DNA from: Bacteroidota bacterium
GTDB lineage: Bacteria > Bacteroidota > Bacteroidia > AKYH767-A > OLB10
Length of the DNA stretch: 64,000 nucleotides
Direction: 5' to 3'
Assembly (NCBI GenBank): GCA_016709725.1
Contig: JADJMG010000005.1
Span: 387,544 to 451,543, forward strand
Shown: positions 46,471 to 64,000 of the stretch, in pieces
Layout of the letters: each line of letters begins with the position of its first letter
Position numbering within the stretch: position 1 is the stretch's first letter
Translations under genes and position numbers: made by a program
Notes under the pieces: model-generated
The model's input: only the letters and a program-made list of their open reading frames with translations
What the model was told of the DNA's origin: nothing
Database searches by the model: none

Positions 46471-46822
46471 CAAATTAATGTTCAAGCCTCTCCTCTCGAG
46501 GCGCGACATCTCCATCCTCTCCAGAGGCGAGGATAAAAGAGAAGAGGGAGTAAAAAAAATGAAATAATATTTGGATTAAATCCCATAAATCTAGGAGAGA
46601 ATTTAGCAACGGGAAAACTTTATGACCTTTAAAAGGATGAATTAGTATTCAAAAATTATTCTTTCGATTTGATATTTAGTAATGCCAAATAAAGTTCATA
46701 AAATTCTTCGCAAAGATTTCTTTGATTAATTTCAAATTATATTTACTAATTAATATATCCATTCCCCCCCCTCGCCTCTGGAGAGGGGTCGCGAAGCCTC
46801 GCGAAGGGGGAGAGGCTTGAAC
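46471..46822. mobile_element. MITE-like non-coding element, about 350 bp, with about 50-bp imperfect terminal inverted repeats
   Basis: Left end ttcaagcctctcctctcgaggcgcgacatctccatcctctccagaggcgagg. Right end cctcgcctctggagaggggtcgcgaagcctcgcgaagggggagaggcttgaa. AT-rich interior with no ORF. Confidence 0.45.
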
Positions 46823-46973
46823 TATAGGCTTTCTAAAATCAAATTAAATTCGAATATATCTTTTCTCTTTGCCAATTTCTCTCAGCTAAAGTTGCTCGCA
46901 AAGGCGCAGAGTCGCAAAGGAACACGAGTGTTGTACTAAAATTTAGCGAAGTAAAAACTATTTTAGTCACGTC

Positions 46974-48029
46974 CTACACATAACGTAATCGATGAATCAA
47001 ATAAATTAAAGTAGCGAATAAGAAAAAAGCAAACACTTGATGCAATACACCCAATACAATAGGAACATTGAATAGCAATGTAAAAATTCCAAGTATCACT
47101 TGACTAAAAACCCCAATCAACAAAATAGTAGTAGCCGATTTTTGTGATGAATGCAAGTTGGGTAGTTTGAAAATTTTGAACGCGAACACAAGAGTAAACA
47201 AAGTAACTAGGTAAGCTAATCCACGATGAATAAACTGCATACTTGCCAAATTGTTTATTAGAGAAGAAATTCCATCCTTTTGAAATGAATATCCAATTGC
47301 TTCGGGCAACCAATCATCGTACATTTTAGGCCATGTATTGTAAATGAGTCCGGCCTTTGAACCCGCAACAAAGGCGCCGTAGATAATTTGTAAAGTGAGT
47401 AATCCCAATAAAATTTTAGCTGCCTTTCTGAACTTCGTTACTTCGCTACCGTTACTGGTTTCTCGATCGAAGAGTTGACTGAGCGCCACCCAAAAAATAT
47501 AACCGAACGTAATGAATGCGAAGGTTAGATGTATCGCCAATCGAATATGACTCACCCGAACATTTTGTGTAAGTCCGCTCGACACCATATACCATCCTAA
47601 AAAACCTTGAATGCCCCCAAGAACGAACATGAATAATAATTTAAGCAACAACTCCACTGAAATCGCCTTCTTTATTAAAAAGTAAATCAATCCAAGCAAG
47701 AACACGACTCCAATGAGTCGACCAAATAAGCGATGAATAAACTCCCAGAAATAAATAAACTTAAAATCCGCTAATTCGAAATGGGAATTTTGCTGTTGAT
47801 ATTGTGGAATCTGTTTATACTTTTCAAAAGCTTCCAACCATTGTGCTTCGTTTAACGGTGGAATACTTCCGCTTATCACCTTCCATTCAGTAATCGACAA
47901 TCCCGAACCGGTGAGGCGGGTGATCCCGCCTACTACCACCATGCCGAATACTAAAAAACATCCGGTGAAAAGCCACAGCAACACTTGACTTTTATACTTT
48001 TCTGAATGAATGCTATTTAATACTTCCAC
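46974..48029 (-). CDS. ctaA: heme A synthase (COX15/CtaA family)
   Basis: 8-TM protein with conserved His-containing helices. Confidence 0.85.
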   Translation of the reverse strand: MEVLNSIHSEKYKSQVLLWLFTGCFLVFGMVVVGGITRLTGSGLSITEWKVISGSIPPLNEAQWLEAFEKYKQIPQYQQQNSHFELADFKFIYFWEFIHRLFGRLIGVVFLLGLIYFLIKKAISVELLLKLLFMFVLGGIQGFLGWYMVSSGLTQNVRVSHIRLAIHLTFAFITFGYIFWVALSQLFDRETSNGSEVTKFRKAAKILLGLLTLQIIYGAFVAGSKAGLIYNTWPKMYDDWLPEAIGYSFQKDGISSLINNLASMQFIHRGLAYLVTLFTLVFAFKIFKLPNLHSSQKSATTILLIGVFSQVILGIFTLLFNVPIVLGVLHQVFAFFLFATLIYLIHRLRYV

Positions 48030-48040
48030 AACGTATCAAT

Positions 48041-49318
48041 TTAGGATGCAACAATTTCTTTCATGACCAATTGCGCGGTGGTTCGACTTCGTTGTTCCAA
48101 TAAGATTTCACGCCCTTGCGATAAATTTTCGATGGTAGATGGATAATAATAACGAATGGTGTATAACTGCAACCCTTCATTATATCGAACCCAATAATCC
48201 TTCTTTAACAATTCAATCAACTTAAAAGTTTTGTATTTATCATCATCAAAACAAACTGAGAAGGAGATAGCAGAATTTTGCATCAAATTCATCTTCACTC
48301 CACAGGCTGCAAACGTTGCAAAAATGGAACTTAAGTTATCCTCGGCTATGAATGCGAAATCCTTTGCGGCTAACGAAACTAACACTTGATCACTCTTAAA
48401 AATAAATGAAGGTACTTGCGGCTTTGTTGTTAAATCTTTTCCTACCACGGTTCCTTTCCCTTGTGGTTGCAAAAACGACTTTACGTAGAGCGGAATATTT
48501 TTATTCTCGAGCGGCTTAATGGTTTTCGGATGAATTACCGAAGCGCCATAGTATGCCAATTCAATGGCATCATGATAACTCAATTGCTCCAACTTTTGCG
48601 CATCGTTAAAATATTTTGGATCGGCGTTAAGCACTCCAGGCACATCTTTCCAAATGGTTACCGATTCTCCATCCAACAAATGCGCGAGAATTGCTGCGGT
48701 ATAGTCAGATCCTTCACGACCTAATGTGGTGGTGAAATTTTCGCTGGTCGCACCAATAAATCCTTGTGTTACTACAATGGGATTACGATCATTGATTAAC
48801 GATGGAATAATTTGTTTCACTCGCTTTTCACTTTCCACCCAATCTACTTTTCCTTCACGGTAGGTATTATCGGTATGAATACAATCACGAACATCTAACC
48901 ACTTACTGGCTATTCCTTGTTCATCCAAATAAGATTGTACAATCGTTGTTGAAATTAACTCCCCGACAGAAACAATCTGATCATACACAAAATCAAAAGA
49001 GCGTGGTTCCTCTTCTAATACCCAATCAATCTCTACAAAAAAATTATTTACTTTACCATAAACTGGTGCATTAGAATCAGGAAATAAATTTTCAAGAATC
49101 GTATCGTGATAGGCTCTTACTTCTTGCAAGAACGAAGTGGCTTCGCCCGTCTTATTGCAATAAGCCTTTACTACTTTCTCCAATCCATTTGTAGTTTTTC
49201 CCATGGCAGATATAACGACCACCAAGGGTTCGCCAGGAAAAAGTCGAATAATGGCAGCTACATTTTTTACTGACTCAGCATCCTTTACCGATGCTCCTCC
49301 AAATTTAAATATTTTCAT
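48041..49318 (-). CDS. lysC: aspartate kinase
   Basis: MKIFKFGGASV... amino-acid kinase N-terminus with C-terminal ACT domains. Confidence 0.9.
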   Translation of the reverse strand: MKIFKFGGASVKDAESVKNVAAIIRLFPGEPLVVVISAMGKTTNGLEKVVKAYCNKTGEATSFLQEVRAYHDTILENLFPDSNAPVYGKVNNFFVEIDWVLEEEPRSFDFVYDQIVSVGELISTTIVQSYLDEQGIASKWLDVRDCIHTDNTYREGKVDWVESEKRVKQIIPSLINDRNPIVVTQGFIGATSENFTTTLGREGSDYTAAILAHLLDGESVTIWKDVPGVLNADPKYFNDAQKLEQLSYHDAIELAYYGASVIHPKTIKPLENKNIPLYVKSFLQPQGKGTVVGKDLTTKPQVPSFIFKSDQVLVSLAAKDFAFIAEDNLSSIFATFAACGVKMNLMQNSAISFSVCFDDDKYKTFKLIELLKKDYWVRYNEGLQLYTIRYYYPSTIENLSQGREILLEQRSRTTAQLVMKEIVAS

Positions 49319-49340
49319 TTCTTAATAGCTGATTCAATCA

Positions 49341-49808
49341 TTAAAAATTATTAATCTGTTGTTGGGTCAATTTGCAATTAATCCATTCTCCATCCATATT
49401 CGCATTGTACTTTTTATAAAACTGGATAGCGGGTTCATTCCAATCCAACACTTGCCAATGCAATTGCTTTGCATTTAACCTTTGTGCATCTTTCATTACC
49501 GCATCAAAAAGTTTACTGCCAATTTTCTTTCCACGCATACTTTCCGTCACTACAATATCATCTAAATAAACACCTCGACCTTTCCAGGTAGAATATTTCA
49601 AGTGATAAATAGCGGTTCCAACAATTTTATCATCCACTTCGGCGACAAGGCAAAAAAAGATAGGTTGATCTCCAAATCCATCCACCAACATATCCTCCAC
49701 GGTATTCGTTACTTCGTTAGGAGCTTTCTCATACACCGCCAATTCATAAATAAATCCATGCACGGATGGCATGTCGTCTTTCGTACCTTTGCGAATCGAA
49801 ATATTCAT
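49341..49808 (-). CDS. GNAT family N-acetyltransferase
   Basis: 155 aa. GNAT core RGKKIGSKLF. Confidence 0.75.
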   Translation of the reverse strand: MNISIRKGTKDDMPSVHGFIYELAVYEKAPNEVTNTVEDMLVDGFGDQPIFFCLVAEVDDKIVGTAIYHLKYSTWKGRGVYLDDIVVTESMRGKKIGSKLFDAVMKDAQRLNAKQLHWQVLDWNEPAIQFYKKYNANMDGEWINCKLTQQQINNF

Positions 49809-49854
49809 GGCTGCAAAAGTATATCATTCTAGCCCTTAATCGAACATAAAATGA

Positions 49855-50641
49855 AACTACATTATAGAATTATTGGTGAAGGAAATCCAGTTCTCCTTCT
49901 ACATGGATTATTTGGCATGAGTGATAATTTACAAAGCTTTGGTCGTCAACTTGCTGAAAAAATCACAAGGTGATTATTGTAGACCTTAGAAACCATGGAC
50001 AATCGCCGCACGATTCAGCACATTCTTACCAACTCATGGCAGATGACATCGTGGAATTGCTTCAAGAATTAAACTTGAGTAAAGTAGACATTATTGGGCA
50101 TAGCATGGGCGGAAAAGTAGTATTGAAACTTTTAAACGCGCACGCTGATAAAATAAATAAAGCGGTAGTCATCGATATTGCGCCTTGGTTTTATCCTATA
50201 CATCATCGTGAAATTCTAGATGCATTACTGGCGATCGACTTAACTGTAATCCGAACGCGTAAAGATGCAGAAAGAGCATTAGCGGAAAACATCAAAGACC
50301 AAGGAACCCTCTTCTTCTTACTTAAAAATTTATATTGGGCAGAACCGGATCAATTAGCATGGCGATTTAATTTACAAGTGCTCAATCAACACATTGAATT
50401 GATAGGTGAAGAAACATGGCCTTCAAAAATTATTTCTACTCCCATCCTTTTTGTCAGAGGAGAAAAATCAAATTACATTGATCCGTATCGCATGAATGAA
50501 ATTTTAAAATGGTTTCCGAATGCTGAATTGGCCGAAATTAAAAATTCGGGACATTGGGTACATGCGGAGCAGCCTGCGGCATTGCTGGAGGTGGTGGATG
50601 GGTATATTTCCCAACGTGGGGTTCCACAACGTGGGGTTTAA
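49855..50641 (+). CDS. alpha/beta hydrolase, frameshifted at an A6 run near 49960
   Basis: N-terminal MKLHYRIIGEGNPVLLLHGLFG continues in another frame into VIIVDLRNHGQSPH...GHSMGG. Confidence 0.7.
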
Positions 50642-53570: not shown

Positions 53571-54406
53571 ATGAAAAGTGCACAACTGAGGATCATCCTC
53601 ATTGCCGGCACAATTCTACTTTCGGCAGCTCTTTATTTTGCGCCCTCTCAGTTAAACAAGAAAGGAGCAGAACCCAAGGCCGCAGCTGAAAATACAGAGG
53701 ACGAATTCAACCCGGAAGCCTTATTGCGATCGGCAAAAGCTTCTCTCGACACCAACGCTCTTCAACAGCTTGAGATCATTGAGAAAGCCTCCGCCCAAGC
53801 AAACAATCAAGATACTGCCTTACTAGACAGCATCGGCAAAATCTGGGATAAAAACGGAATACCGGCTGCTTCCGCCATTTGGTTTGAGCGAAAAGCACAA
53901 ATAGTAAAGAGTGAAACATCATACCTTGATGCAGCTTATCGCTATTTTGATTCTTTTCGAAATGGCCAATGACAGTATGATTCAGTCGTTATTAGTTGGT
54001 AAAGCCATCACCAACTATCAAAAGGTTTTAGAATTAAATCCGAACAACCTGAATGCAAAAACAGACCTTGGTGCCTGTTATGCCGATGGAACTTCGGAGC
54101 CTATGAAAGGGATTATGTTATTGCGTGATGTAGTAGCAGCCGATCCCAATCATGAAATGGCCCAATACAATTTGGGAATGCTATCGGTGAAATCAGGGCA
54201 ACTTGATAAAGCGATCGAACGATTCCAAAAAGTACCAGAAATAAATCCTCAAGAAGCGAAATGAACTTTACCTCGGTCAAGTTCATCTTCAAAAAGGAGA
54301 TACGGCAGCGGCCATACAGTCGTACGAAACGTTCATCAAGAATGCGAAGTATGATGTATCCGATGTCATTAAAATGGTTCAAGCACTCAAGAAGAAAACT
54401 TCTTGA
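53571..54406 (+). CDS. tetratricopeptide-repeat protein, interrupted by about 2 frameshifts (pieces 53571-53972, 53911-54264, 54262-54406)
   Basis: N-terminal TM anchor, then TPR-like segments continuing across three frames (..YNLGMLSVKSGQLDKAIERFQK.. / ELYLGQVHLQKGDTAAAIQSYE..). Confidence 0.6.
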
Positions 54407-54620: not shown

Positions 54621-56186
54621 GTGGACTATATTGATTTAAGGAATTTTGTAATCCTCCCATGCAAAATTATTAGGCTTCAAGATTTGAACAGCGAACTCAT
54701 TATTGATTCGTCGACTTCCGAGGTGCAAATTGCCCTTGTTGAAGACAAGCAGCTCGTAGAGTTAAATACAGAAAAAAAAGAAAAAGGATTTTCTGTTGGT
54801 GACGTCTACTTGGGCCGCGTGAAGAAACTTATGCCTTCACTCAACGCCGCTTTTGTAGATATCGGTTATGAAAAAGATGCTTTTCTCCATTACCTCGATT
54901 TAGGTACCCAGGTACAATCCCTCATCAAGTACATGAAGAATACACAAGCCGGCACACAAACCGATGGCTTGTTGAATAACTTCGAACTGGAAGCAGACAT
55001 CCACAAAGCCGGCAAAATCGGACAAGTGGTAAACACCAACCTAAACATCATGGTGCAGGTGGCCAAGGAACCCATCAGCAGCAAAGGTCCGCGCATCACC
55101 GCCGAACTTTCCTTTGCTGGGCGATTTGTAGTTTTGGTTCCCTTTTCAGATGTTGTTTCCGTATCTCAAAAAATTAAGAGCAGTGCCGAGCGACTTCGCC
55201 TAAAACGTTTAGCGACGAGTATCAAGCCCCGAAACTTCGGAATCATTGTTCGCACTGTTGCTGAAGGAAAAAAAGTTGCCGACCTCGACAGAGATGTGCA
55301 AGATTTAACTTCGAAGTGGACGGCTTTGCACGAACAATTAAAATCGGCCACACCACCTGCAAAACTCTTGGGTGAAATTGATCGCGCTTCCACCATCTTA
55401 AGAGATTTATTGAATGCAAACTTCAATGCCATTCATGTCAATGATGTTCGGGTTGCAGAAGAAATAAAAACGTATTTGAGAGGGATTTCTCCCGATCAAG
55501 TCGACATTGTAAAGTTGTACAAAGGCAAGTTACCCATTTTCGAAAACTTTGGTATCGACAAACAAATAAAATCTCTTTTTGGAAAAACAGTGAACATGGC
55601 TGGGGGTTCCTACCTCATCATTGAGCATACCGAAGCCATGCATGTGATTGATGTGAATAGTGGCGGCCGAAACAAAGGGGCATCCGACTCACAAGAAAAC
55701 AATGCGCTGCAAACAAACTTAATGGCGGCAAAAGAGATTGCCCGTCAATTTAGCATGCGCGATATGGGTGGAATCATCGTCATTGATTTCATCGACATGA
55801 AAAACACGGTGAATCGCAAAGCCTCCAACAAAATTTGGTCTTGTTCAAATCACACGGGAGCGTGTACGACCGGTTACCGATATCATTACCGTAGAGAAAT
55901 GTCCGGCCTGTGATGGAACGGGAGAAATTAAAGCCTCCTCCTTTTAATCGACGACATTGAAAATAATTTACGTTACCTCTGCGAAGAGCAAAACGAAAAA
56001 GGGTTAACCTTACAAACGCATCCTTTCGTAGCTGCCTTTTTAAATAAAGATTTTTGGAAATTCAAATCTTTCCAATGGAAATGGCGCAAGAAATATAAAA
56101 GCTGGGTAAAGATTGAACCCATCTCCTCCTTCCATTTAATGGAATTCCATTTTATGAATAAGCAAGGGGAAGTGATAAAGCTTTAA
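54621..56186 (+). CDS. rng: ribonuclease G (RNase E/G family), with 2 apparent frameshifts in the 3' quarter
   Basis: An S1 domain and the catalytic core (HVIDVNSG, DMGGIIVIDFIDM). The C-terminus ...VQITRERVRPVTDIITVEKCPACDGTGEIKASS / LIDDIENNLRYLCEE...FWKFKSFQWKWRKKYKSWVKIEPISSFHLMEFHFMNKQGEVIKL continues in other frames to the TAA at 56184-56186. Confidence 0.8.
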
Positions 56187-56380
56187 GTGCTTTTTTTCTT
56201 GGAAGCTTCCGCTTTCTACAATACCTATTTCTTGATCTTTAACTGCTATTCTTCGATGGATGGGGAGTTAGTACGTACTTGTACTTAGTGGGAACTTTTT
56301 GGTGGGGGTAGATGGGTGTTTGGTTGGTTTAAAAAGTATATTTGAGGAAAGCTAAGCATGAGTAAAGCCTCTGTCTAGGG
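56020..56380 (+). repeat. left copy of an about 330-360 bp direct repeat (covers the last about 45 codons of rng plus about 190 bp downstream); candidate att site
   Basis: About 85-90% identical to 59735-60100 (for example gattgaacccatctcctcc, ggtttaaaaagtatatttg). Confidence 0.7.
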
Positions 56381-56462
56381 ATGAGGCTTTACTTAATAAT
56401 CGCGAGGTAATAATATGTTACCTGCAATTTTTAGCGACAGTCCTAACTTGATACTTTAAGCA

Positions 56463-59400
56463 ATGAATAAAAACCGAATAGCAAATTTCTTAGGATTTCT
56501 GACAACTGCGACTATCACAGGAGTTGGACTTTCCATGACATCCAATCAGTTTGTTGGTGGAGCAATCATTGGGCTTGGTATTGAATTGGGTTCAGGTTTC
56601 ATTGAGTCAGTTTGCTCAAAACTCAAAAAGAATTGGACTAAAGAAAATTATGGACTTTTAAATCATGACATTCAAAAGTCATTACAACGAAGTATTGTGG
56701 CGGCTCTGAATGATATGCAGACAGAATGCCTTACAATGCCATTTGCACCTGACGAAAGAGAACCCATCAAAAACTTTTATGACAGTTTGATTAAGGAATC
56801 AAAAGAAGATTTCTTCCACAAGTATTTAGAAGATAAGAATGACAACATACTAAAAGATCTTATAAACAAAAACTCTTCAACCTTTGAGAAAGACATTACT
56901 GATGGAATCTACAACGAAGAATTACTTTCAACTTTCAGTTTGTCTTTTAAGCATTACTTCAAAGAAACTTTAGTAAAGAAATTACGGTTTTGGTTTACAG
57001 AAGATTTGAAGGGTGAAGGCGATGAAAATAAAAGAGCAAGAGTAGCGTATGAAAAAATTCTGTTGGAGAGCATTGAAAACACATTACAAGAGCAGTGCAA
57101 TAAAATAACATCTCTTCAAACCCAAGTGGGTTTGATTTTTGAAAATTCAATTAGAGCAATCAATGAAGGAAAACAATTCAAGAAACACTTCAAAAACTCT
57201 TTCCACAATTTCCTTCTTTTTCTTTAGTAACAATTCCGCAAGAGGAAAGTAACAACGCAGATAAATTCTATGACGGTTTCCCCCCGCAACTTGAAGATTT
57301 AAAAGCAAATTTTGATTTTCCAAGAAATCTTTATTTAAAAGATAGTGGAGTTAAGTCAAGAATAAACGAACTAACATCATCTGATGCACACTTTGTAAAA
57401 TTCATTCTGATAAAAGGAGTTGGGGGTAGTGGAAAATCTACATTGCTCAAAAGAATTTCGTTTGACCAAACAATAATTGGCAAGAATGTTTTTACCTAAA
57501 CAAAGATTGGTTTGAGGACAAACAAATCAACAAACTTCAAACTCAAATAAAACGACTTGCCGAATCTTATCCCGATTGTGTAATAGTACTTGATGACATT
57601 GCTGATTGTATTTTAAGAGAAGAAATAAATTTTCCCGAACTCATTAATTCACTAAGTTCAAAAAGGATTTTGTTTGTTCTTGCTGACCAACCTGACAGAT
57701 GGAACAGAGTAACTCCCAAGGTGAGGGAGCTAAATACAGCAGGACAACTTCTCTCATTCGACTTACACCAACTTGACGAAATTGAATGCGAAGATTTAGC
57801 GGATAAAATGATTGAACTTGAATCTGAGGAAAAACTTTCAATCAGACACCTTGAATTGACAAAGGAAGAACGAGTAAAACTTTGTAAGGAAAATTCTAAA
57901 AGACACTTTGTAGTCGCAATGCTGCAAATCCGATATGGTAAAAGGTTCAGCGATATTATAATTGAAGAATTTGAAAAAATACCATCAGAGAAAGGTAAAG
58001 AAGCATATCTGATGGTTTGCTTTTGCAATCATTTAGGACTTTCAATTCCTGAATCCATTGTTATCAGTGCTTTGCACTTAACATCTTCTCTTAGCATAAA
58101 TGAATTTCATTCCTACACGGAAGGAATCGTTATTTTCAGTAAGTATGGTTTATCTTCAAGACACCCAATAATAGCCCGTGAAATTATCCGCAACTTTGTC
58201 AAAACAAAATTGAATTTCATTTCAACCTAAAACAAATATTCTCCTCATTAGGTGAAAACAAAATAGAAGTTTCAGATTTCTTAGACAGCTTCTTATCAAA
58301 GGAAAATATTCACAAAACCTTAGCAAAGATATTAGAAAAGGACATTGTTTTAATTGAGGATATTATTCAGATAATAGAAAGCAAGAAACATCTTTTAGAA
58401 AAAGATTTGCTTATCAAGTTGATGAGTTTTTATGGAATGACTGAACGATTGATTGGAAATGACGAGAAGGCGTTAGAAATTTTCAAACAGATTATTAGTG
58501 AGATCGACAAGGGGTATTCTTTTTGCGTATCGGCAAATCGGCTGGATAGAACACGACAATCAGAACTATGATGAAGCTGCAAATTATGCGATTCAATCCT
58601 ATCAGTATTCAAATGAAAATCCCGAACACATTATTCAGATTGCAAAGCTTTTGGCTCTTAATACAGTTAAGAATTTTAGAGAAGCAAAAAAATATTATGT
58701 AGCAGCACTTGAAAAAAGTAACAAGGACAAGTATTACCAAGAAGAACTTGAAAAATATACTGATGCAGAAAATGCACTGAACTACTTTTCGCAGTTATAC
58801 GATGATGACTTCATTCCAGACGATATTATCAAAGCGCTAAGACCAGGACTTAACTTTTTCAGAATCTATTTTCACACTAATTCAAAAGAGTTTAAAAATA
58901 AACTCATCAATGTTCTTCATGGAATGGAAGGCGATACCAAGGGAAGCATTGAAGACCTTGACGCAGTTGTTGAAGGTTTCAACATCAAGAAAGACAAGTT
59001 AGTAAGTAGTAAATACTACGGCAATCTTGCACGAATTATGTATTTGGAGTGGTATAAAAATGAAAAAAATAATTGACCCTACTAAGATACTTGAGGTTTT
59101 CCAAACCAGTTTAACTTTAAATTCAAATGACCCATTTACTCATTGTTGGTTAGGAACATTCTATAAAGAAGTTTTGAAAGATTTTGTAACAGCAGAAGCC
59201 GAATACAAAAAAGCAATTGCCCTTTCAAAGAATTCTAAATACGAACATGACAAAGACCACCCACTCTTTTCAAATAATCTTGCTCTCTTGATTATGGATG
59301 AAGTGGTTGCTGACAAACTTCCAAAAGAAAAATTATTTGAGGCAAAATCTCTTTTAGATTTTTCTGTAAAAGTTAATACCGAAAAACAATCAAGTTTTTA

Positions 59401-59464
59401 TTGGGCAGAACATAATCTCTCAAAGTGTTTGGACTTAATTGACAGATATAAATTGACTTCGTAA
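56463..59464 (+). CDS. NLR-like STAND/NACHT-type NTPase (N-terminal glycine-zipper/helical domain, P-loop NTPase, helical region, C-terminal TPR repeats), split over 6 frame segments
   Basis: Segments 56463-57227, 57167-57499 (Walker A FILIKGVGGSGKSTLLKRI), 57457-58230 (Walker B CVIVLDDIADC), 58182-58568, 58498-59076 and 59027-59464 (TPR-like). The junctions overlap at A/T homopolymers. Confidence 0.6.
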
Positions 59465-59734
59465 CCTTGAATAAAATGACGAACACAACTCCGAACTTTC
59501 ATCTTTGTGGCGAGAGTAAAACTGCAGGTAACATGGGGTTTTCGATAGTGGGTGTTTCGTGCTCCGCAGACACATTTGTACAAGGTGGAATCCTGCCTGC
59601 CGGCATGCAGGTTCAGTTCCCCGCATGAGGATTAGAGTTAAGACTCATCATCATCGAACCTATTACAGAACCAATTGTTTTACTGTTACAGACTTACAAA
59701 ATGGACAGAGCAAATCGAAAAAAGCCCAACTCTC

Positions 59735-60100
59735 CAAACCAAGCCCTTCGTTGCTTCCATTTTGAAAACTGATTTTGGAAATTCAAATCTTTTCAATTGA
59801 AATGGTTCAAGAAATATAAAAGCTGCGTGAAGATTGAACCCATCTCCTCCTACCATTTAATGGAATTTCATTTTTTGAATAAGCAGGGGGAAGAGATAAA
59901 GCTTTAAGCGCTTTTTTTTCTTGGAAGTTTACGACTTCTACAATACCTATTTCTTATTTCTTAATTGCTATTTGTCGCCTGTGGCTATTTAGTACGTATT
60001 TGTACTTAGTGAAAACTTTTTGGTGGGGCTAAATGGGTGTTGGGTTGGTTTAAAAAGTATATTTGGGAAAGGGAAATGTGAGTTAAGCCTACAGACTAGG
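59735..60100 (+). repeat. right (diverged) copy of the direct repeat; still encodes an RNase G C-terminus-like peptide FWKFKSFQLKWFKKYKSCVKIEPISSYHLMEFHFLNKQGEEIKL
   Basis: Alignable to 56020-56380 at both nucleotide and protein level. Confidence 0.7.
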
Positions 60101-60181
60101 TAAGGGCAGGATAAACGAAATAGAAGTTCGGCATTAATACTTTAGATAATATTATAAAAAACCACAACCTGAAAGAAACGA

Positions 60182-62288
60182 ATGCATATTTCAAAGTTTA
60201 CAGCATTTAATTTTAGAAGTCTTAGACAAGTTGTTTCTTTACGATTTGAAGGTGGGAGAAATGTCATTGTTGGTAAAAACAATTCGGGTAAGTCGAATAT
60301 TATTAAAGGGATTGAAATTCTAATTGGCGAAAAATTTCCAACCTATATCAATTTCACAGACAACGATTTTTATACTTACGAGGCAGTTGATGAAGACACA
60401 GGAGAATTTCGAGAAGTTGTTTCAGACAATCTTTATTTAGAGGTTGAATTAGCAGGAAGAGATTTTGATGAAACTTTACTAAATACAATTAAAAAACAAA
60501 CCGCATTTTCAAGAGTAGAAAATTCCGCTTCTCTTTATCATAAACTAGAAAATGGAGAATTCAAAGCAAATTATGACTTCTTTCAAAGTCTTGACGACAT
60601 TGAGAGTAGGCCTGAAGTAATCGTTTGCGGCGAAAATCTAGGTGGAAGACAAAAGAAAACGGAATGGAAAAAACCTGAAAACCTCATTGCTTTTTTTAAA
60701 ATCAGCAAGGACAATCAAACTCTTTTTTTTGTAAATCCCGAACGGATGATGAAAAGTCAGGTTTCGGTTTGATTTGCGTTGATTCAAATGGATTAATTTG
60801 GGTATCACATTTCTTATCAAAAAAATTAAGAGATTCTTTAATTACAACAACTGTAATAAGTGCACTTCGTAGTCAAAAAGAAGATTTGAGATTGGTTCAT
60901 TATACATGGTTTGGAAAACTAATAAAAGGCTTATGGGAGGACAATAAAGCAAGCACTCATCCAACCGAACAAAAATCTTATGAGGAACTTATCAAATCAA
61001 AATCAATAGATATAAAGCGTTTCGTTGATGAGGTTTTTCGTAAGGATACTACTGAAATAAGAAAACTTTTAGAAGGTGCAATAGCTCATAAAGAAATTTC
61101 ATTCCGTTTTATGAATGATACAACAAATGAGTTATACAAAAATATTCAACTTTTTGTTAATGATGGAATAGATAGGCCCCTTTACGAAAAAGGAACAGGG
61201 ATTCAAAGTGCAATAATAATTTCTTTGTTTTCTCTGTATTGTAACGAGTATCATAATAATAGTTCTCTTTTAATTGCAGAAGAACCAGAGTTGTTCTTAC
61301 ATCCACAAGCAAGAAGAGTTATATCGGCCGAATTGGATAAGTTTTTAAATGGTTCTCAAGAACAACAACGCCAACTTATTATTAGTACACACTCTGTGGA
61401 GTATCTGAAAAATGTTGACCCCTTTAATATAATTCGTGTATATAAGGATAGTATCAATAATTGTTCGATAGTTAAACAACTTGACCAAGCAACATCTCAA
61501 CAAATCACAACAGAACTTAAGAGATTTCTTTGGTCGAACAATACGGAACTCTTTTTGCTGACAAGGTTGTCTTAGTTGAAGGAGGTGAAGTTTATTTAAT
61601 TCCATCAATAGTTGACAAATTAAAAGGTTTTAAACAATTATTAGACTATCAAAACATTACGGTTTCAAGAGTAAATGGTAAAGGAAGCTTTTTGACATAT
61701 GTTAAAATGTTACAATGCTTTGATATTGAATTTATTATACTAGGAGATTTAGATTGTTTTAAGGACGAAGTACCTAAACTAATTAAGCATTTAAAAATTA
61801 ATGCAATAATAGAAAATGCAGGGAAAATTAAAACTGCGATTTCTTCATTGCCAATTAGTTATGAAGCTATTGATGAACGAGTAAAGGGAGTTGATAGAAA
61901 CTATGATTCACAAACTCTACAAAGCCTTTTTGAAAAATTTGCAAGTGGAGAAATCGAAAAAGACAATGAAGATCTTCTTGCAATTATTCAATTTATGCAA
62001 TTACGTTACACTAAAGGAGATAAAGAAGAAGTGATTATTGAATCGGTTGGAGAAGAAGAATTTAACACTGTACTTTCAACTCTCAGAGACAATAACATTT
62101 TCATTTGGTCAAAGGGTGATCTTGAATGTTACTATTCAGACAAATCAAAAGCATTAAACGGAAGTAAAGACATCAAAGCACTTGAATTATCATATCTATT
62201 ACAGGTTGAAACAGAAAATATAGAAGATTTAATTCTACATCTTGACGAAGTAAAACAACTTATCGAAACGATATTGAAAAAAGAATAA
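60182..62288 (+). CDS. OLD-family ATP-dependent endonuclease (ABC-type ATPase + TOPRIM), split into 3 frames (60182-60772, 60769-61575, 61530-62288)
   Basis: N-terminal FNFRSL...VIVGKNNSGKSNIIKGIE (Walker A). Middle LLIAEEPELFLHPQARR (Walker B/D-loop) and ISTHS (H-loop). C-terminal KVVLVEGGEVYL and ILGDLD (TOPRIM E and DxD). Confidence 0.65.
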
Positions 62289-62455
62289 CATCAGCTAACA
62301 GCCGTTTAGCAAAAAAGGGGGGTTAGTGCTTGAATGTGTGCTACTAGACATTTAGTGCTTCGAAATCCGCTTCTTCGCCAAGCACCAAACCGTTATTTGT
62401 TATTATAGCAACCGCTGAACATATCTAACTTAGAAACAAAATTAAATTAAAATGT

Positions 62456-64000
62456 ATGTCTGTAGATACAAAAGAAATTGAGAAATTATTAGTAAAATCA
62501 TACAATGAAGGTTTCTCAAATTTAAATTTTAGCTATTTTGATTTAAGAGAAATTCCATTCTTTATTTTAGAACGCCCTTTATTATTAAATCAAAAGCGTA
62601 AAGATGGTTCAGATTCTGAAGAATATGAAAATTTGAATTTGGAGAAAGTACGAGAATTAAATTTATCTAATAACTATCTTACTCAAATAGACACAAAAAT
62701 ATCATGTTTTAAAGGACTTCAAACCTTAGATATTTCAAATAATAAACTAGAACAGCTTCCACGACAAATATGTGAACTTGGAAACTTAAAAGAAGTAATT
62801 GTCAATAACAATCCTCTAATTAATTTACCTCAAAAGTTTGCATCATTTCAAAAGCTTGAAATTCTTGATCTATCCAATACAGCGATTTATGAAATACCAA
62901 ACTATATTCAATATCTGTATAATTTAAAAGAACTAAATTTAGCTAATTGTAAATTAAGTGTACTACCTAAAAGAATTATACTACCTTCCAAATCTTAAGA
63001 TTCTTAACATTACAGGTAATCCACTCATTGACCCTCCTATTGAAATAGCCTCAAAGGGTATAGATTACGTAAAATATTATTATGACGAAATTGACTCTTC
63101 AATAGAAAAAGATTTCTTGTATGAAGTAAAACTTCTACTAATCGGTGAAGAAAGAGCAGGAAAATCAACCATTGCCGAATCACTATCAAATCCAAATTAT
63201 GAGTTTGATTTATACAAAAACAGCACACAAGGTATAGACATCAAAAAATGGACAATAAATCAAGATAAATTAAATATTGAAAAGGATTTTCAAGTCAATA
63301 TTTGGGACTTTGGTGGTCAGGAAATTTATCATGCAACCCATCAGTTTTTTTTTCACAAAACGTTCGTTGTATTTTCTAGTAACAGAGGCTCGAAAAGATT
63401 TAAGGCACGATGACTTATTTTATTGGTTGAATCTAATTGAGATTTTAGGAAACAATAGTCCCGTAACGATTTTAATAAATAAAAGCGACCAACCATATAC
63501 GTTCTTTGCAACAGATGCCTACCGAGAAAAATTTCCTAATATTTTAGGAACAAAAAACATTAGTTGCTTGCCCGAATACAAAAATACAATTGAAGAATTA
63601 AGAGAAGTAGTCTATTCAATATTGTCTAATAAAGATTTAATGCCTGATATTGGAGTTGAACTACCTAAGGTTTGGATAGATATTCGGAACGAATTAAATA
63701 GTATTAAAGATGCTGGAGTTTTTTATATTAAAACTAGTAGATACTTTTCAATTTGTAAAAAATTTGGAATGAATGAAGAAAGATCTCTTTTTTTAAGTGA
63801 CTACTTTCATGACCTTGGAGTATTTCTCCATTTCCAAAATGATTTAGTTTTAAAAGATACTGTTTTTTAAATTTTGAGTGGGTTACGAATGCGGTTTACT
63901 GCATACTCGATAATCCTAGAATAGTTTCTAATCATGGCTTCTTTAATGATACTGATTTAGAGATTATTTGGAAGAAAAACTATTATTTTGATAAAAGGTT
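62456..64000 (+). CDS. ROCO-type protein (LRR - Roc small GTPase - COR), fragmented by several frameshifts and running off the window
   Basis: LRRs (LxxLxLSNNxLxxLP, 62456-62998). Roc G1 KLLLIGEERAGKST, G3 IWDFGGQE (62958-63413) and G4 NKSD (63277-63870). COR-like sequence continues in another frame to 64000. Confidence 0.6.

What the first reader, a model, noticed from the sequence alone, without database searches (positions are those of the whole stretch)
62456..64000. ROCO (LRR-Roc-COR) GTPase immediately downstream of the OLD nuclease inside the island
Leucine-rich repeats are followed by a Ras-of-complex-proteins GTPase (G1 KLLLIGEERAGKST, G3 DFGGQE, G4 NKSD) and a COR-like continuation. 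Bacterial ROCO proteins are known mainly as structural models of LRRK2, and their physiological role is unclear. This one is embedded between an OLD nuclease and an NLR-like STAND protein in an insertion island. An LRR sensor plus a GTPase switch would suit a defense or signalling role, or a partner role for the adjacent nuclease, but that link is speculative. The frame breaks include a T9 run (about 63346-63354) and a T6 run (about 63865). The gene runs off the window.
Basis: partly seen in the sequence, partly recalled or inferred. Interest (0 to 1): 0.6.

Follow-up and report, generated by a model that had tools for sequence, protein, structure and literature searches.

The report
ROCO GTPase fused to MCU-type channel
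The window ends in a real bacterial LRRK2-like (LRR-Roc-COR) GTPase gene whose apparent frame breaks are almost certainly sequencing errors, and whose full-length form carries a pore domain of the mitochondrial-calcium-uniporter family, making it a probable one-protein sensor, switch and membrane channel of a defence island and not a partner of the neighbouring nuclease.

Summary
Window 62456-64000 (+) encodes LRRs, a Roc GTPase with intact G1/G3/G4 motifs, and the start of COR-A (Pfam E 1e-24 to 5e-27). The frame is broken at three homopolymers: A4, T9 and T6.

The breaks are almost certainly errors of the window assembly. Seven contigs from six independent short-read assemblies cover 56292-64000. 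They agree with each other and differ from the window by 14 one-base indels and only 6 substitutions. In them the STAND (1000 aa), OLD (701 aa) and ROCO (890 aa) genes are all intact.

The full-length protein is LRR-Roc-COR-A-COR-B-coiled coil-TM-WDxME-TM-coiled coil. Its C-terminus is a mitochondrial-calcium-uniporter (MCU) family pore domain, supported by Pfam above the gathering score, by PDB profile hits that are all MCU, and by Foldseek.

The OLD link is not conserved from either side. ROCO-MCU orthologues are solo genes in two genomes, and OLD orthologues have other neighbours.

Best reading: an autonomous sensor-switch-pore protein of the predicted "AP-GTPase" conflict systems (Kaur et al. 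2021, which list the tail only as "COR+TM+TM"). Function is untested. Interest is moderate.

The parts
62456..64000 (+). 5' part (514 of 890 codons) of the ROCO-MCU gene. It runs off the window. In the window it reads as three ORF pieces plus a tail.
   Evidence: A near-identical intact gene is at L022:6166-8838 and L001:103-2454.
62648..63026 (+). Leucine-rich repeats (about aa 61-205 of the protein), the presumed sensor module
   Evidence: Pfam LRR_4, LRR_8 and LRR_14. Coordinates. This domain is less conserved among orthologues (47-65% identity) than Roc (76-90%).
63129..63489 (+). Roc (Ras of complex proteins) GTPase domain, with G1 at 63144-63170, G3 at 63306-63323 and G4 at 63478-63489
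   Evidence: Pfam Roc 1.3e-24, matching profile positions 1-119 of 119. Motif coordinates. The closest solved relatives are MbRoco2 4WNR, CtRoco 6HLU/8R4B and LRRK2.
63661..64000 (+). Start of the COR-A domain. The rest of COR-A, COR-B, the coiled coil and the MCU-like 2-TM domain lie beyond the window.
   Evidence: Pfam COR-A 4.7e-27. In the full-length protein: COR-A 1e-35, COR-B 7e-34, MCU 1.4e-13.
62969..62972 (+). A4 run that is A3 in all four other contigs covering it. This is frame break 1.
63345..63353 (+). T9 run that is T8 in all three other contigs covering it. This is frame break 2, inside switch II/HQFFFTKRS.
63863..63868 (+). T6 run that is T7 in all three other contigs covering it. 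This is frame break 3.
62289..62455 (+). 167-bp OLD-ROCO intergenic region. It has no exact Bacteroidota -7 motif on the + strand and no convincing terminator. It holds the direct repeat TTAGTGCTT twice (62323-31 and 62352-60). Several short-read contigs break here.
60182..62288 (+). Context: OLD-family ATPase+TOPRIM nuclease. It is 3 ORF pieces in the window and an intact 701 aa elsewhere. It is an independent single-gene system, not a conserved partner.
   Evidence: PADLOC Old 4.4e-46; Pfam AAA_15 and OLD-like_TOPRIM. Indels at 60691, 60723 and 61552. Orthologue contexts.
56463..59464 (+). Context: nSTAND_NTPase5 + TPR protein. It is fragmented in the window and an intact 1000 aa in L022.

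Best explanation
The feature is the first 58% of an intact gene. The three frame breaks are homopolymer-length consensus errors of the window's assembly.

The gene encodes an 890-aa single-chain protein. Its parts, in order, are: N-terminal LRRs (sensor); a Roc GTPase with complete G motifs (switch); COR-A/COR-B (dimerisation and transmission); a coiled coil; and a C-terminal MCU-family domain. That last domain consists of TM1, a short external loop with W-D-x-M-E, TM2 and a second coiled coil.

Proposed mechanism, all inferred:
1. The cytoplasmic LRR-Roc-COR part detects an invader-derived cue.
2. It changes nucleotide and oligomeric state, as shown for CtRoco.
3. This drives assembly or opening of a tetrameric MCU-like cation pore in the inner membrane.
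4. Cation influx and depolarisation stop the infected cell, as in abortive infection.

The protein acts on its own. The OLD nuclease and the STAND NTPase beside it are independent systems gathered in the same mobile, low-GC defence island.
For: Identity and architecture (shown):
- Pfam hits for the full-length protein: LRR, Roc 2.4e-24, COR-A 1e-35, COR-B 7e-34, and MCU 1.4e-13 at 51.8 bits against a gathering score of 30.8.
- A profile of the C-terminus hit 13 PDB sequences, all of them MCU, best E 1.8e-9. WDxME aligned on the WDIMEP filter.
- The AF2 model (pLDDT 80) gave 15 top Foldseek hits that are all MCU (E 5e-5 to 7e-4). The next hit had E>2.
- W[DNE]xxE is kept in 131 of 149 top relatives.
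- Two hydrophobic helices flank the motif.

Artefactual frame breaks (strong inference):
- Seven contigs from six independent short-read assemblies are mutually identical at every site where the window differs. The window differs by 14 single-base indels in or beside nucleotide runs, plus 6 substitutions.
- In core DNA the same kind of comparison gives 13-65 substitutions and 0-1 homopolymer indel per contig (Fisher p=2e-10).

Autonomy (shown by comparison):
- ROCO-MCU orthologues are solo genes in Imperialibacter and Kordia.
- No OLD or STAND gene lies near any other ROCO locus.
- OLD orthologues have other neighbours.

Conflict role (circumstantial):
- The island holds OLD (PADLOC Old 4.4e-46) and nSTAND5 genes.
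- One orthologue has a TIR-domain protein upstream.
- Paralogues carry TIR or EAD domains at the same C-terminal position.
- One ROCO homologue sits between hsdS and hsdM of a type I R-M operon.
- The island is about 99.9% identical across samples, while the flanking core differs by 0.5-2.3%.
- The MCU module also occurs fused to CYTH, or directly to LRRs.
- Kaur et al. 2021 predicted LRR+AP-GTPase+COR+effector proteins to be conflict systems and list about 299 'COR+TM+TM' rows.
Against: - No experiment links any bacterial ROCO to phage defence in the searchable literature.
- There is no PADLOC model hit.
- Two of the three long-context orthologues sit among housekeeping genes with no defence neighbour.
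- Across 105 neighbours of 14 ROCO loci, only a few hit defence models.
- No relative was found on viral contigs.
- Ion conduction, selectivity, tetramerisation and coupling to the GTPase are all untested. Roc-COR proteins are dimers whereas MCU pores are tetramers.
- The AF2 monomer did not fold the TM hairpin.
- The raw reads of the window assembly were not available, so real pseudogenisation of this particular copy is not formally excluded.
- The island has a far higher indel density than the core despite a similar homopolymer content. I explain this by poorer short-read polishing there, but cannot show it.
Confidence: 0.55

Rival explanations
1. The protein is a physiological signalling channel, not immunity. 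It would be a GTPase-regulated cation (Ca2+) channel used for sensing or homeostasis. The LRRs would bind a cellular or environmental partner, and its place in the island would be incidental.
For: The Imperialibacter and Kordia orthologues are single genes between metabolic or housekeeping genes. There is no PADLOC hit. Few defence hits were found among neighbours of ROCO loci. MCU in eukaryotes is a physiological channel (established knowledge).
Against: The gene is patchily distributed, and the island is mobile and near-identical across samples. It is co-located with OLD, nSTAND and TIR genes. The C-terminal position is swapped for TIR or EAD domains in paralogues. One sample carries a copy whose pore domain is cut off by IS66, which fits a dispensable or costly gene.
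Confidence: 0.25
2. The window's copy is a genuine decaying pseudogene, as are the neighbouring OLD and STAND genes. The island would be inactivated in this strain by slippage mutations.
For: The window sequence as given has 14 frame-disrupting indels in 7.7 kb of the island. The core has far fewer, although homopolymer density is similar. Natural inactivation of this gene does occur elsewhere: an IS66 insertion in L001, and an LRR region split off as a separate overlapping ORF in L005.
Against: All 14 indels are single bases in or next to nucleotide runs. Indels outnumber substitutions 14 to 6, the reverse of the core pattern (p=2e-10). All other contigs are identical to each other at every one of these sites. 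The core also carries at least one such homopolymer error, A6 versus A7 at 49957, which truncates a hydrolase gene. The source is a MAG with a 466-kb contig and IPJ26 locus tags. From memory, that tag style belongs to the Nanopore/CANU activated-sludge MAGs, which received a single Illumina Racon round (PMC8012365).
Confidence: 0.1
3. OLD and ROCO form a two-gene system. The ROCO would sense infection and license the OLD nuclease, or the reverse, from a shared operon.
For: The genes share a strand and are separated by a 167-bp gap. There is no exact TAnnTTTG -7 motif on the + strand in the gap, while one precedes OLD (60058) and one precedes STAND (56337). There is no convincing terminator on the + strand. 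The adjacency is present in every assembly of this element.
Against: All of those assemblies are the same, roughly 99.9%-identical element. There is no OLD near any other ROCO locus (L002-L021). There is no ROCO near eight OLD orthologues of 61-76% identity, whose neighbours are an integrase, PLD nucleases, DUF4365 and a NACHT protein. OLD scores best as the single-gene 'Old' model. The ROCO protein carries its own effector domain. The motif count is not above chance in the window.
Confidence: 0.07

Closest known systems
Bacterial and archaeal Roco proteins used as LRRK2 models (Chlorobaculum tepidum CtRoco, PDB 6HLU/8R4B/3DPU; Methanosarcina barkeri Roco2, 4WNR) and human LRRK2
   Same: The LRR-Roc-COR-A/B core is shared. 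The matches are E 7e-52 (4WNR), 5e-41 (CtRoco, covering aa 62-498) and 1e-29 (LRRK2). The G motifs are intact. A nucleotide-dependent dimer/monomer cycle is presumably shared, but that is inferred.
   Different: CtRoco has no C-terminal MCU or TM domain, and LRRK2 carries kinase and WD40 domains instead. Neither is a membrane protein.
Prokaryotic 'AP-GTPase' conflict systems of Kaur, Burroughs, Iyer & Aravind 2021 (eLife, PMC8195603): LRR + AP-GTPase + COR + variable C-terminal effector
   Same: The overall logic and domain order are exactly the same. [quoted passage not shown] Paralogues with TIR or EAD domains at the same position were seen here too.
   Different: The paper names TIR, DRHyd, caspase, trypsin, FGS, GT4 and EADs as effectors. 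The word MCU does not occur in its text or its held supplements. Here the TM+TM tail is shown to be an MCU-family pore domain. The system remains a prediction and is not tested.
Mitochondrial calcium uniporter MCU (PF04678; e.g. PDB 6XQN, 6DT0, 5ID3, 6O58)
   Same: The arrangement of coiled coil, TM1, W-D-x-M-E loop, TM2 and coiled coil is shared. The Pfam score is above the gathering threshold, all PDB profile hits are MCU, and the Foldseek top 15 are MCU.
   Different: There is no MCU N-terminal domain, and no EMRE or MICU partners. The domain is fused to a large cytoplasmic GTPase. The residue after the E is K or Q, not P, in most close relatives. One orthologue has N in place of D. Ca2+ selectivity and tetramer formation are unknown.
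Single-chain STAND/NLR-like defence proteins (Avs, bNACHT) and membrane-depolarising abortive-infection effectors
   Same: It works like them in outline: repeat sensor, NTPase switch and effector on one chain, with a membrane-targeting effector.
   Different: The switch is a Ras-like GTPase, not a STAND ATPase. There is no sequence relationship to these proteins, and no PADLOC model matches.

Membership tests
ROCO proteins | Roc (Ras-like) GTPase domain with G1-G5 motifs | tested here: met
   Pfam Roc 1.3e-24, matching profile positions 1-119 of 119. The motifs GEERAGKST, DFGGQE, NKSD and ISCL were located.
ROCO proteins | COR domain (COR-A + COR-B) immediately C-terminal to Roc | tested here: met
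   COR-A 4.7e-27 within the window. COR-A 1e-35 and COR-B 7e-34 in the intact 890-aa copy.
ROCO proteins | GTP binding/hydrolysis and nucleotide-dependent dimerisation | not testable with these tools
   This is inferred only from the conserved motifs and from homology to CtRoco.
AP-GTPase conflict systems (Kaur et al. 2021) | N-terminal LRRs + GTPase + COR + variable C-terminal effector domain on one polypeptide | tested here: met
   Architecture. Relatives show variable C-termini: TIR, EAD11, unknown domains and MCU.
AP-GTPase conflict systems (Kaur et al. 2021) | Association with conflict/defence contexts and an anti-invader function | tested here: inconclusive
   For: the OLD and nSTAND island, a TIR neighbour, and a homologue inside a type I R-M operon. 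Against: solo genes in housekeeping contexts and few defence hits among 105 neighbours. Function cannot be tested here.
MCU family (PF04678) | Sequence membership above the curated threshold | tested here: met
   51.8 bits against a gathering score of 30.8, E 1.4e-13, aa 718-874 matching profile positions 26-177 of 177. All 13 PDB profile hits are MCU, with E down to 1.8e-9.
MCU family (PF04678) | Two TM helices joined by a short loop carrying the acidic DIME-type filter motif, flanked by coiled coils | tested here: met
   The sequence reads WYFYFIITFVTIVWTTLIYLF-TWDRMEQ-FTYIFGLLFLAFNGYYFY. W, M and E are invariant and D is present in 4 of 5 orthologues. The motif is aligned to WDIMEP. Foldseek matches MCU chains at TM 0.5-0.66.
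MCU family (PF04678) | Tetrameric, Ca2+-selective pore | not testable with these tools
   The AF2 monomer gave one long helix and not a hairpin. No multimer prediction or electrophysiology was possible.
Gabija (GajA/GajB) or another OLD-based two-gene system that includes the ROCO gene | A conserved partner gene next to the OLD ATPase-TOPRIM gene (UvrD-like GajB for Gabija; here the ROCO gene would be the partner) | tested here: not met
   No helicase lies next to OLD. The best PADLOC model is the single-gene 'Old'. ROCO is absent from 8 OLD-orthologue loci. OLD is absent from all other ROCO loci.

The most novel reading that the evidence does not exclude
The LRR-Roc-COR module gates an MCU-type cation pore, so a Ras-like GTPase directly controls a uniporter-family channel as a cell-suicide or immunity effector. 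The MCU pore fold would then be a modular bacterial effector, also found here fused to CYTH and directly to LRRs. If so, the eukaryotic mitochondrial calcium uniporter pore might descend from, or share ancestry with, a bacterial conflict-system effector, as is argued for TIR, gasdermin and caspase-like domains.
Probability: 0.3. Interest if true: 0.75.

Novelty: new member of a known kind. Interest (0 to 1): 0.5.

Why it matters
There are three reasons.

1. It is a practical warning. All three island genes look like pseudogenes only because of homopolymer errors in a long-read MAG. Annotation pipelines would discard three intact defence-type genes.

2. It supplies the missing half of the gene. 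The effector of this ROCO protein is an MCU-family pore. This links two protein families that are studied almost only in eukaryotes, the LRRK2-type GTPases and the mitochondrial calcium uniporter, in one bacterial polypeptide. That gives a tractable system in which to ask how a Roc-COR switch transmits to an output domain. It also bears on what MCU-like pores do in bacteria and where the uniporter fold came from.

3. It removes a tempting but unsupported OLD-ROCO 'system'.

Tried and rejected
- Exact look-ups of the window's ORF fragments (62456-62998 and 60182-60772) found no positioned record, so the window's own downstream DNA could not be fetched. The genome-contig scan did not contain the source MAG either.
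- The word-indexed protein search with the C-terminal profile returned only one weak hit and was uninformative. The exhaustive representative search replaced it.
- Phase variation was rejected as the cause of the frame breaks. Fourteen simultaneous single-base indels across three genes, several in runs of only 2-4 bases, do not fit it.
- I guessed that the C-termini of the ROCO homologues in L009 and L010 are OLD-like TOPRIM/DUF4435 domains, which would have tied ROCO to OLD chemistry. This found no support: no Pfam hit, hhalign probability 0.4%, and no PDB hit.
- The sigma-70 promoter and terminator scan of 59400-62600 was not above shuffles. The Bacteroidota -7 motif count in the window was not above chance.
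- There were no Rfam matches in 55800-64000.
- There were no tRNA genes in the window to mark an integration site.
- No relatives were found in viral contigs.
- The AF2 model of the C-terminal monomer predicted a continuous helix across the TM1-loop-TM2 region. It cannot be used to argue pore geometry, although Foldseek still ranked only MCU chains at the top.

Full report
**1. What is in the window**

On the + strand, ORFs 62456-62998, 62958-63413 and 63277-63870, plus a tail that runs to 64000, lie in three different frames. Reading across them shows three one-base shifts, each inside a homopolymer:
- an A4 run at 62969-72;
- a T9 run at 63345-53;
- a T6 run at 63863-68.

After these are repaired, the 514-aa product hits Pfam COR-A (4.7e-27), Roc (1.3e-24, full profile) and several LRR families.
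- G1 GEERAGKST at 63144-70;
- G3 DFGGQE at 63306-23;
- G4 NKSD at 63478-89.

The closest solved relatives are MbRoco2 (4WNR, 7e-52), CtRoco (6HLU/8R4B, 5e-41 over LRR-Roc-COR) and LRRK2 (1e-29).

**2. The frame breaks are almost certainly not biological**

The repaired protein is 100% identical by BLASTP (two residue differences) over its whole length to P0001, an intact protein from a Logan assembly.

An exact look-up identified the window as a MAG labelled "Bacteroidetes bacterium". It has IPJ26_* locus tags, proteins MBK76822xx, and a 466,581-bp contig.

The same cluster as the window's OLD fragment holds an intact 701-aa OLD protein. That protein is encoded on six contigs. Together with L001, these are seven contigs from six independent short-read assemblies (GCA_020051655.1, GCA_020050275.1, three ENA YUYA23 samples and SRR11088434). 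They cover window 56292-64000 at about 99.7% identity.

Site by site, every difference from the window is shared by every other contig covering that site. The differences are 14 single-base indels, all in or beside nucleotide runs, and only 6 substitutions.

In those assemblies all three island genes are intact:
- nSTAND_NTPase5+TPR, 1000 aa;
- OLD, 701 aa;
- ROCO, 890 aa.

In core DNA (46.5-50.2 kb) the same kind of comparison is dominated by substitutions. It gives 13-65 substitutions per contig and 0-1 homopolymer indel. The contrast with the island has Fisher p=2e-10.

The one shared core indel is A6 versus A7 at 49957. It truncates the hydrolase gene at 49970-50641, so the window assembly carries such errors outside the island as well.

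Homopolymer density is similar in core and island. The island is therefore specifically under-corrected. I cannot show why.

From memory, the locus-tag style belongs to the Nanopore/CANU activated-sludge MAGs. Those were polished with medaka and a single Illumina Racon round (PMC8012365). That link is a lead, not a test.

I put about 85-90% on artefact and about 10% on a genuinely decayed copy.

**3. The full-length protein**

L022:6166-8838 encodes 890 aa. The Pfam hits are:

| Domain | E-value | Residues / notes |
|---|---|---|
| LRRs | 4e-16 to 6e-14 | |
| Roc | 2.4e-24 | |
| COR-A | 1e-35 | |
| COR-B | 7e-34 | |
| MCU (PF04678) | 1.4e-13 | aa 718-874; 51.8 bits against a gathering score of 30.8 |

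The tail reads: coiled coil, WYFYFIITFVTIVWTTLIYLF, TWDRMEQ, FTYIFGLLFLAFNGYYFY, coiled coil.

Further evidence that the tail is an MCU-family domain:
- A profile of five orthologous tails hit 13 PDB sequences, all MCU, with E down to 1.8e-9. WDxME aligned on the WDIMEP selectivity filter.
- An AF2 model of the tail (pLDDT 80) returned only MCU chains as its top 15 Foldseek hits (E 5e-5 to 7e-4). The next hit had E>2. The monomer model did not form the TM hairpin.
- By analogy with MCU topology, the LRR-Roc-COR part and the last coiled coil would be cytoplasmic, and the WDxME loop periplasmic. This is inference.

Among orthologues, Roc is the most conserved domain (76-90% identity). The LRRs are less conserved (47-65%), and the MCU tail is least (33-43%).

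**4. How common the fusion is**

An exhaustive profile search of 1.84 billion representative proteins gave 641 hits at E<=1e-3. The close family collapses to one representative, P0005.

Ten long hits were scanned against Pfam. Seven are (LRR-)Roc-COR-A-COR-B proteins with the MCU-like tail. Six of these also reach the Pfam MCU model; P0295 matched only my profile.

The MCU module also occurs in other forms:
- alone, in proteins of about 250 aa;
- fused to a CYTH domain (P0181, 364 aa, a 20-member cluster);
- fused directly to LRRs without a GTPase (P0201).

W[DNE]xxE is kept in 131 of 149 top hits.

Kaur et al. 2021 (PMC8195603) described "AP-GTPase" conflict systems. These have rapidly evolving LRRs, a GTPase, COR, and at least 24 alternative C-terminal effectors (TIR, DRHyd, caspase, trypsin, FGS, GT4, EADs). 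Their source table holds about 299 "COR+TM+TM" rows, but the word MCU is absent from the text and from the held supplements.

I found no paper that calls a bacterial MCU-like domain an effector. I also found none that links Roc-COR proteins experimentally to phage defence.

**5. The OLD neighbour**

The intact OLD scores best as the single-gene "Old" model of PADLOC (4.4e-46). It has no adjacent helicase.

From the ROCO side:
- tblastn found no OLD, STAND or other island gene near any ROCO locus from L002 to L021.
- The Imperialibacter orthologue lies between lactate-utilisation and aldo-keto-reductase genes.
- The Kordia orthologue lies between a tRNA methyltransferase gene and an ECF sigma factor gene.
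- A third orthologue has a TIR-domain protein upstream.

From the OLD side:
- Eight metagenomic orthologues of 61-76% identity have no ROCO nearby.
- Their neighbours are instead an integrase plus PLD nucleases, a DUF4365 protein, or a 1778-aa NACHT protein.

The adjacency is therefore a property of this one element, which is about 99.9% identical wherever it was found. The 167-bp gap lacks an exact Bacteroidota -7 motif on the + strand, while OLD and STAND each have one about 120 bp upstream. However, that motif is not enriched in the window, so this says little.

**6. Evidence for a conflict role**

This evidence is circumstantial.
- The island's G+C is low (29-34% against 35-43% in the rest of the window).
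- It starts after RNase G.
- It carries OLD and nSTAND5 genes and, further on in L022, an HTH-SocA/Panacea gene.
- It is far more conserved between samples than the flanking core.
- One ROCO homologue with a different tail sits between hsdS and hsdM of a type I R-M operon, near a DpdF-like helicase.
- Paralogues carry TIR or EAD domains in the tail position.
- In one sample an IS66 element cuts the gene 12 codons before TM1, removing exactly the pore domain.

Against this reading:
- ROCO and STAND have no PADLOC hits.
- Two orthologues sit in housekeeping contexts.
- Few defence hits were found among 105 neighbours of 14 ROCO loci.
- No relatives were found on viral contigs.

**7. Verdict**

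The finding is a correctly identified ROCO GTPase.
- Its broken frame is an assembly artefact.
- Its proposed partnership with OLD is not supported.
- Its unseen C-terminus is an MCU-family pore domain.

It is a new member of a catalogued but untested class, LRR-GTPase-COR+TM+TM. The mechanistic model of sensor, GTPase switch and cation pore is plausible (about 0.55). It rests on homology and context only.

Noticed in passing
window 49957 (A6 run), gene 49970-50641: Three short-read contigs from different strains all have A7 where the window has A6. The downstream alpha/beta-hydrolase ORF starts at a GTG and matches its Pfam profile only from position 31. The gene therefore looks truncated by a homopolymer error in core DNA.
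   Followed up: partly
window 53571-53972 and 53911-54264: Two overlapping same-strand ORFs were seen: one of 133 aa with no Pfam hit, and one of 117 aa with TPR repeats. They may be a single TPR gene split by another frameshift.
   Followed up: no
window 56463-59464; L022:173-3175: The 'NLR-like' gene is in at least four ORF pieces in the window but is an intact 1000-aa nSTAND_NTPase5+TPR protein in L022. It has no PADLOC match. In another locus (L037) an OLD orthologue sits directly after a 1778-aa NACHT protein, so an OLD-next-to-STAND pairing appears twice.
   Followed up: partly
L001:2451-4757 (Logan SRR11088434): An IS66-family element (TnpB_IS66 plus a DDE transposase) is inserted in the ROCO gene 12 codons before TM1. 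The result is a 783-aa protein that lacks exactly the MCU pore domain.
   Followed up: yes
L010:4620-12984: A ROCO homologue of 848 aa, with an unknown C-terminal domain, is inserted between hsdS and hsdM of a type I restriction-modification operon (hsdR-hsdS-ROCO-hsdM). A DpdF-like helicase lies a few kb away.
   Followed up: partly
window 62323-62360 (OLD-ROCO gap): The direct repeat TTAGTGCTT occurs twice (62323-31 and 62352-60). Several short-read contigs end or start at 62350-62503: L025 and L027 end there, and L001 starts at 62354. This hints at a repeat or at strain variation at the junction.
   Followed up: no
P0181 (364 aa), P0201 (374 aa), P0175-P0180: MCU-family pore domains occur in other, probably prokaryotic, architectures. 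These are CYTH-MCU (named 'YjbK' by JGI; a 20-member cluster in which one member is seen on 47 contigs), LRR-MCU without a GTPase, and stand-alone proteins of about 250 aa (one from an Aminicenantes MAG).
   Followed up: partly
L005:966-3633 (Logan SRR29063594): An 80%-identical orthologue has its LRR part as a separate 153-aa ORF that overlaps the 744-aa main ORF. This is either a frameshift in a short-read assembly or a naturally split gene.
   Followed up: no
window 56292-64000 compared with 46483-50215: Apart from the indels, the island is about 99.9% identical across samples from at least three studies. The adjacent core genes differ by 0.5-2.3% between the same kinds of samples. This suggests a recently spread mobile element.
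   Followed up: partly
L022:9021-15936: Downstream of the ROCO gene, the intact island continues with unannotated genes of 323, 364, 205 and 254 aa, a DUF4325 (STAS-like) gene, DUF2188, and an HTH plus SocA/Panacea gene. None hits PADLOC.
   Followed up: partly
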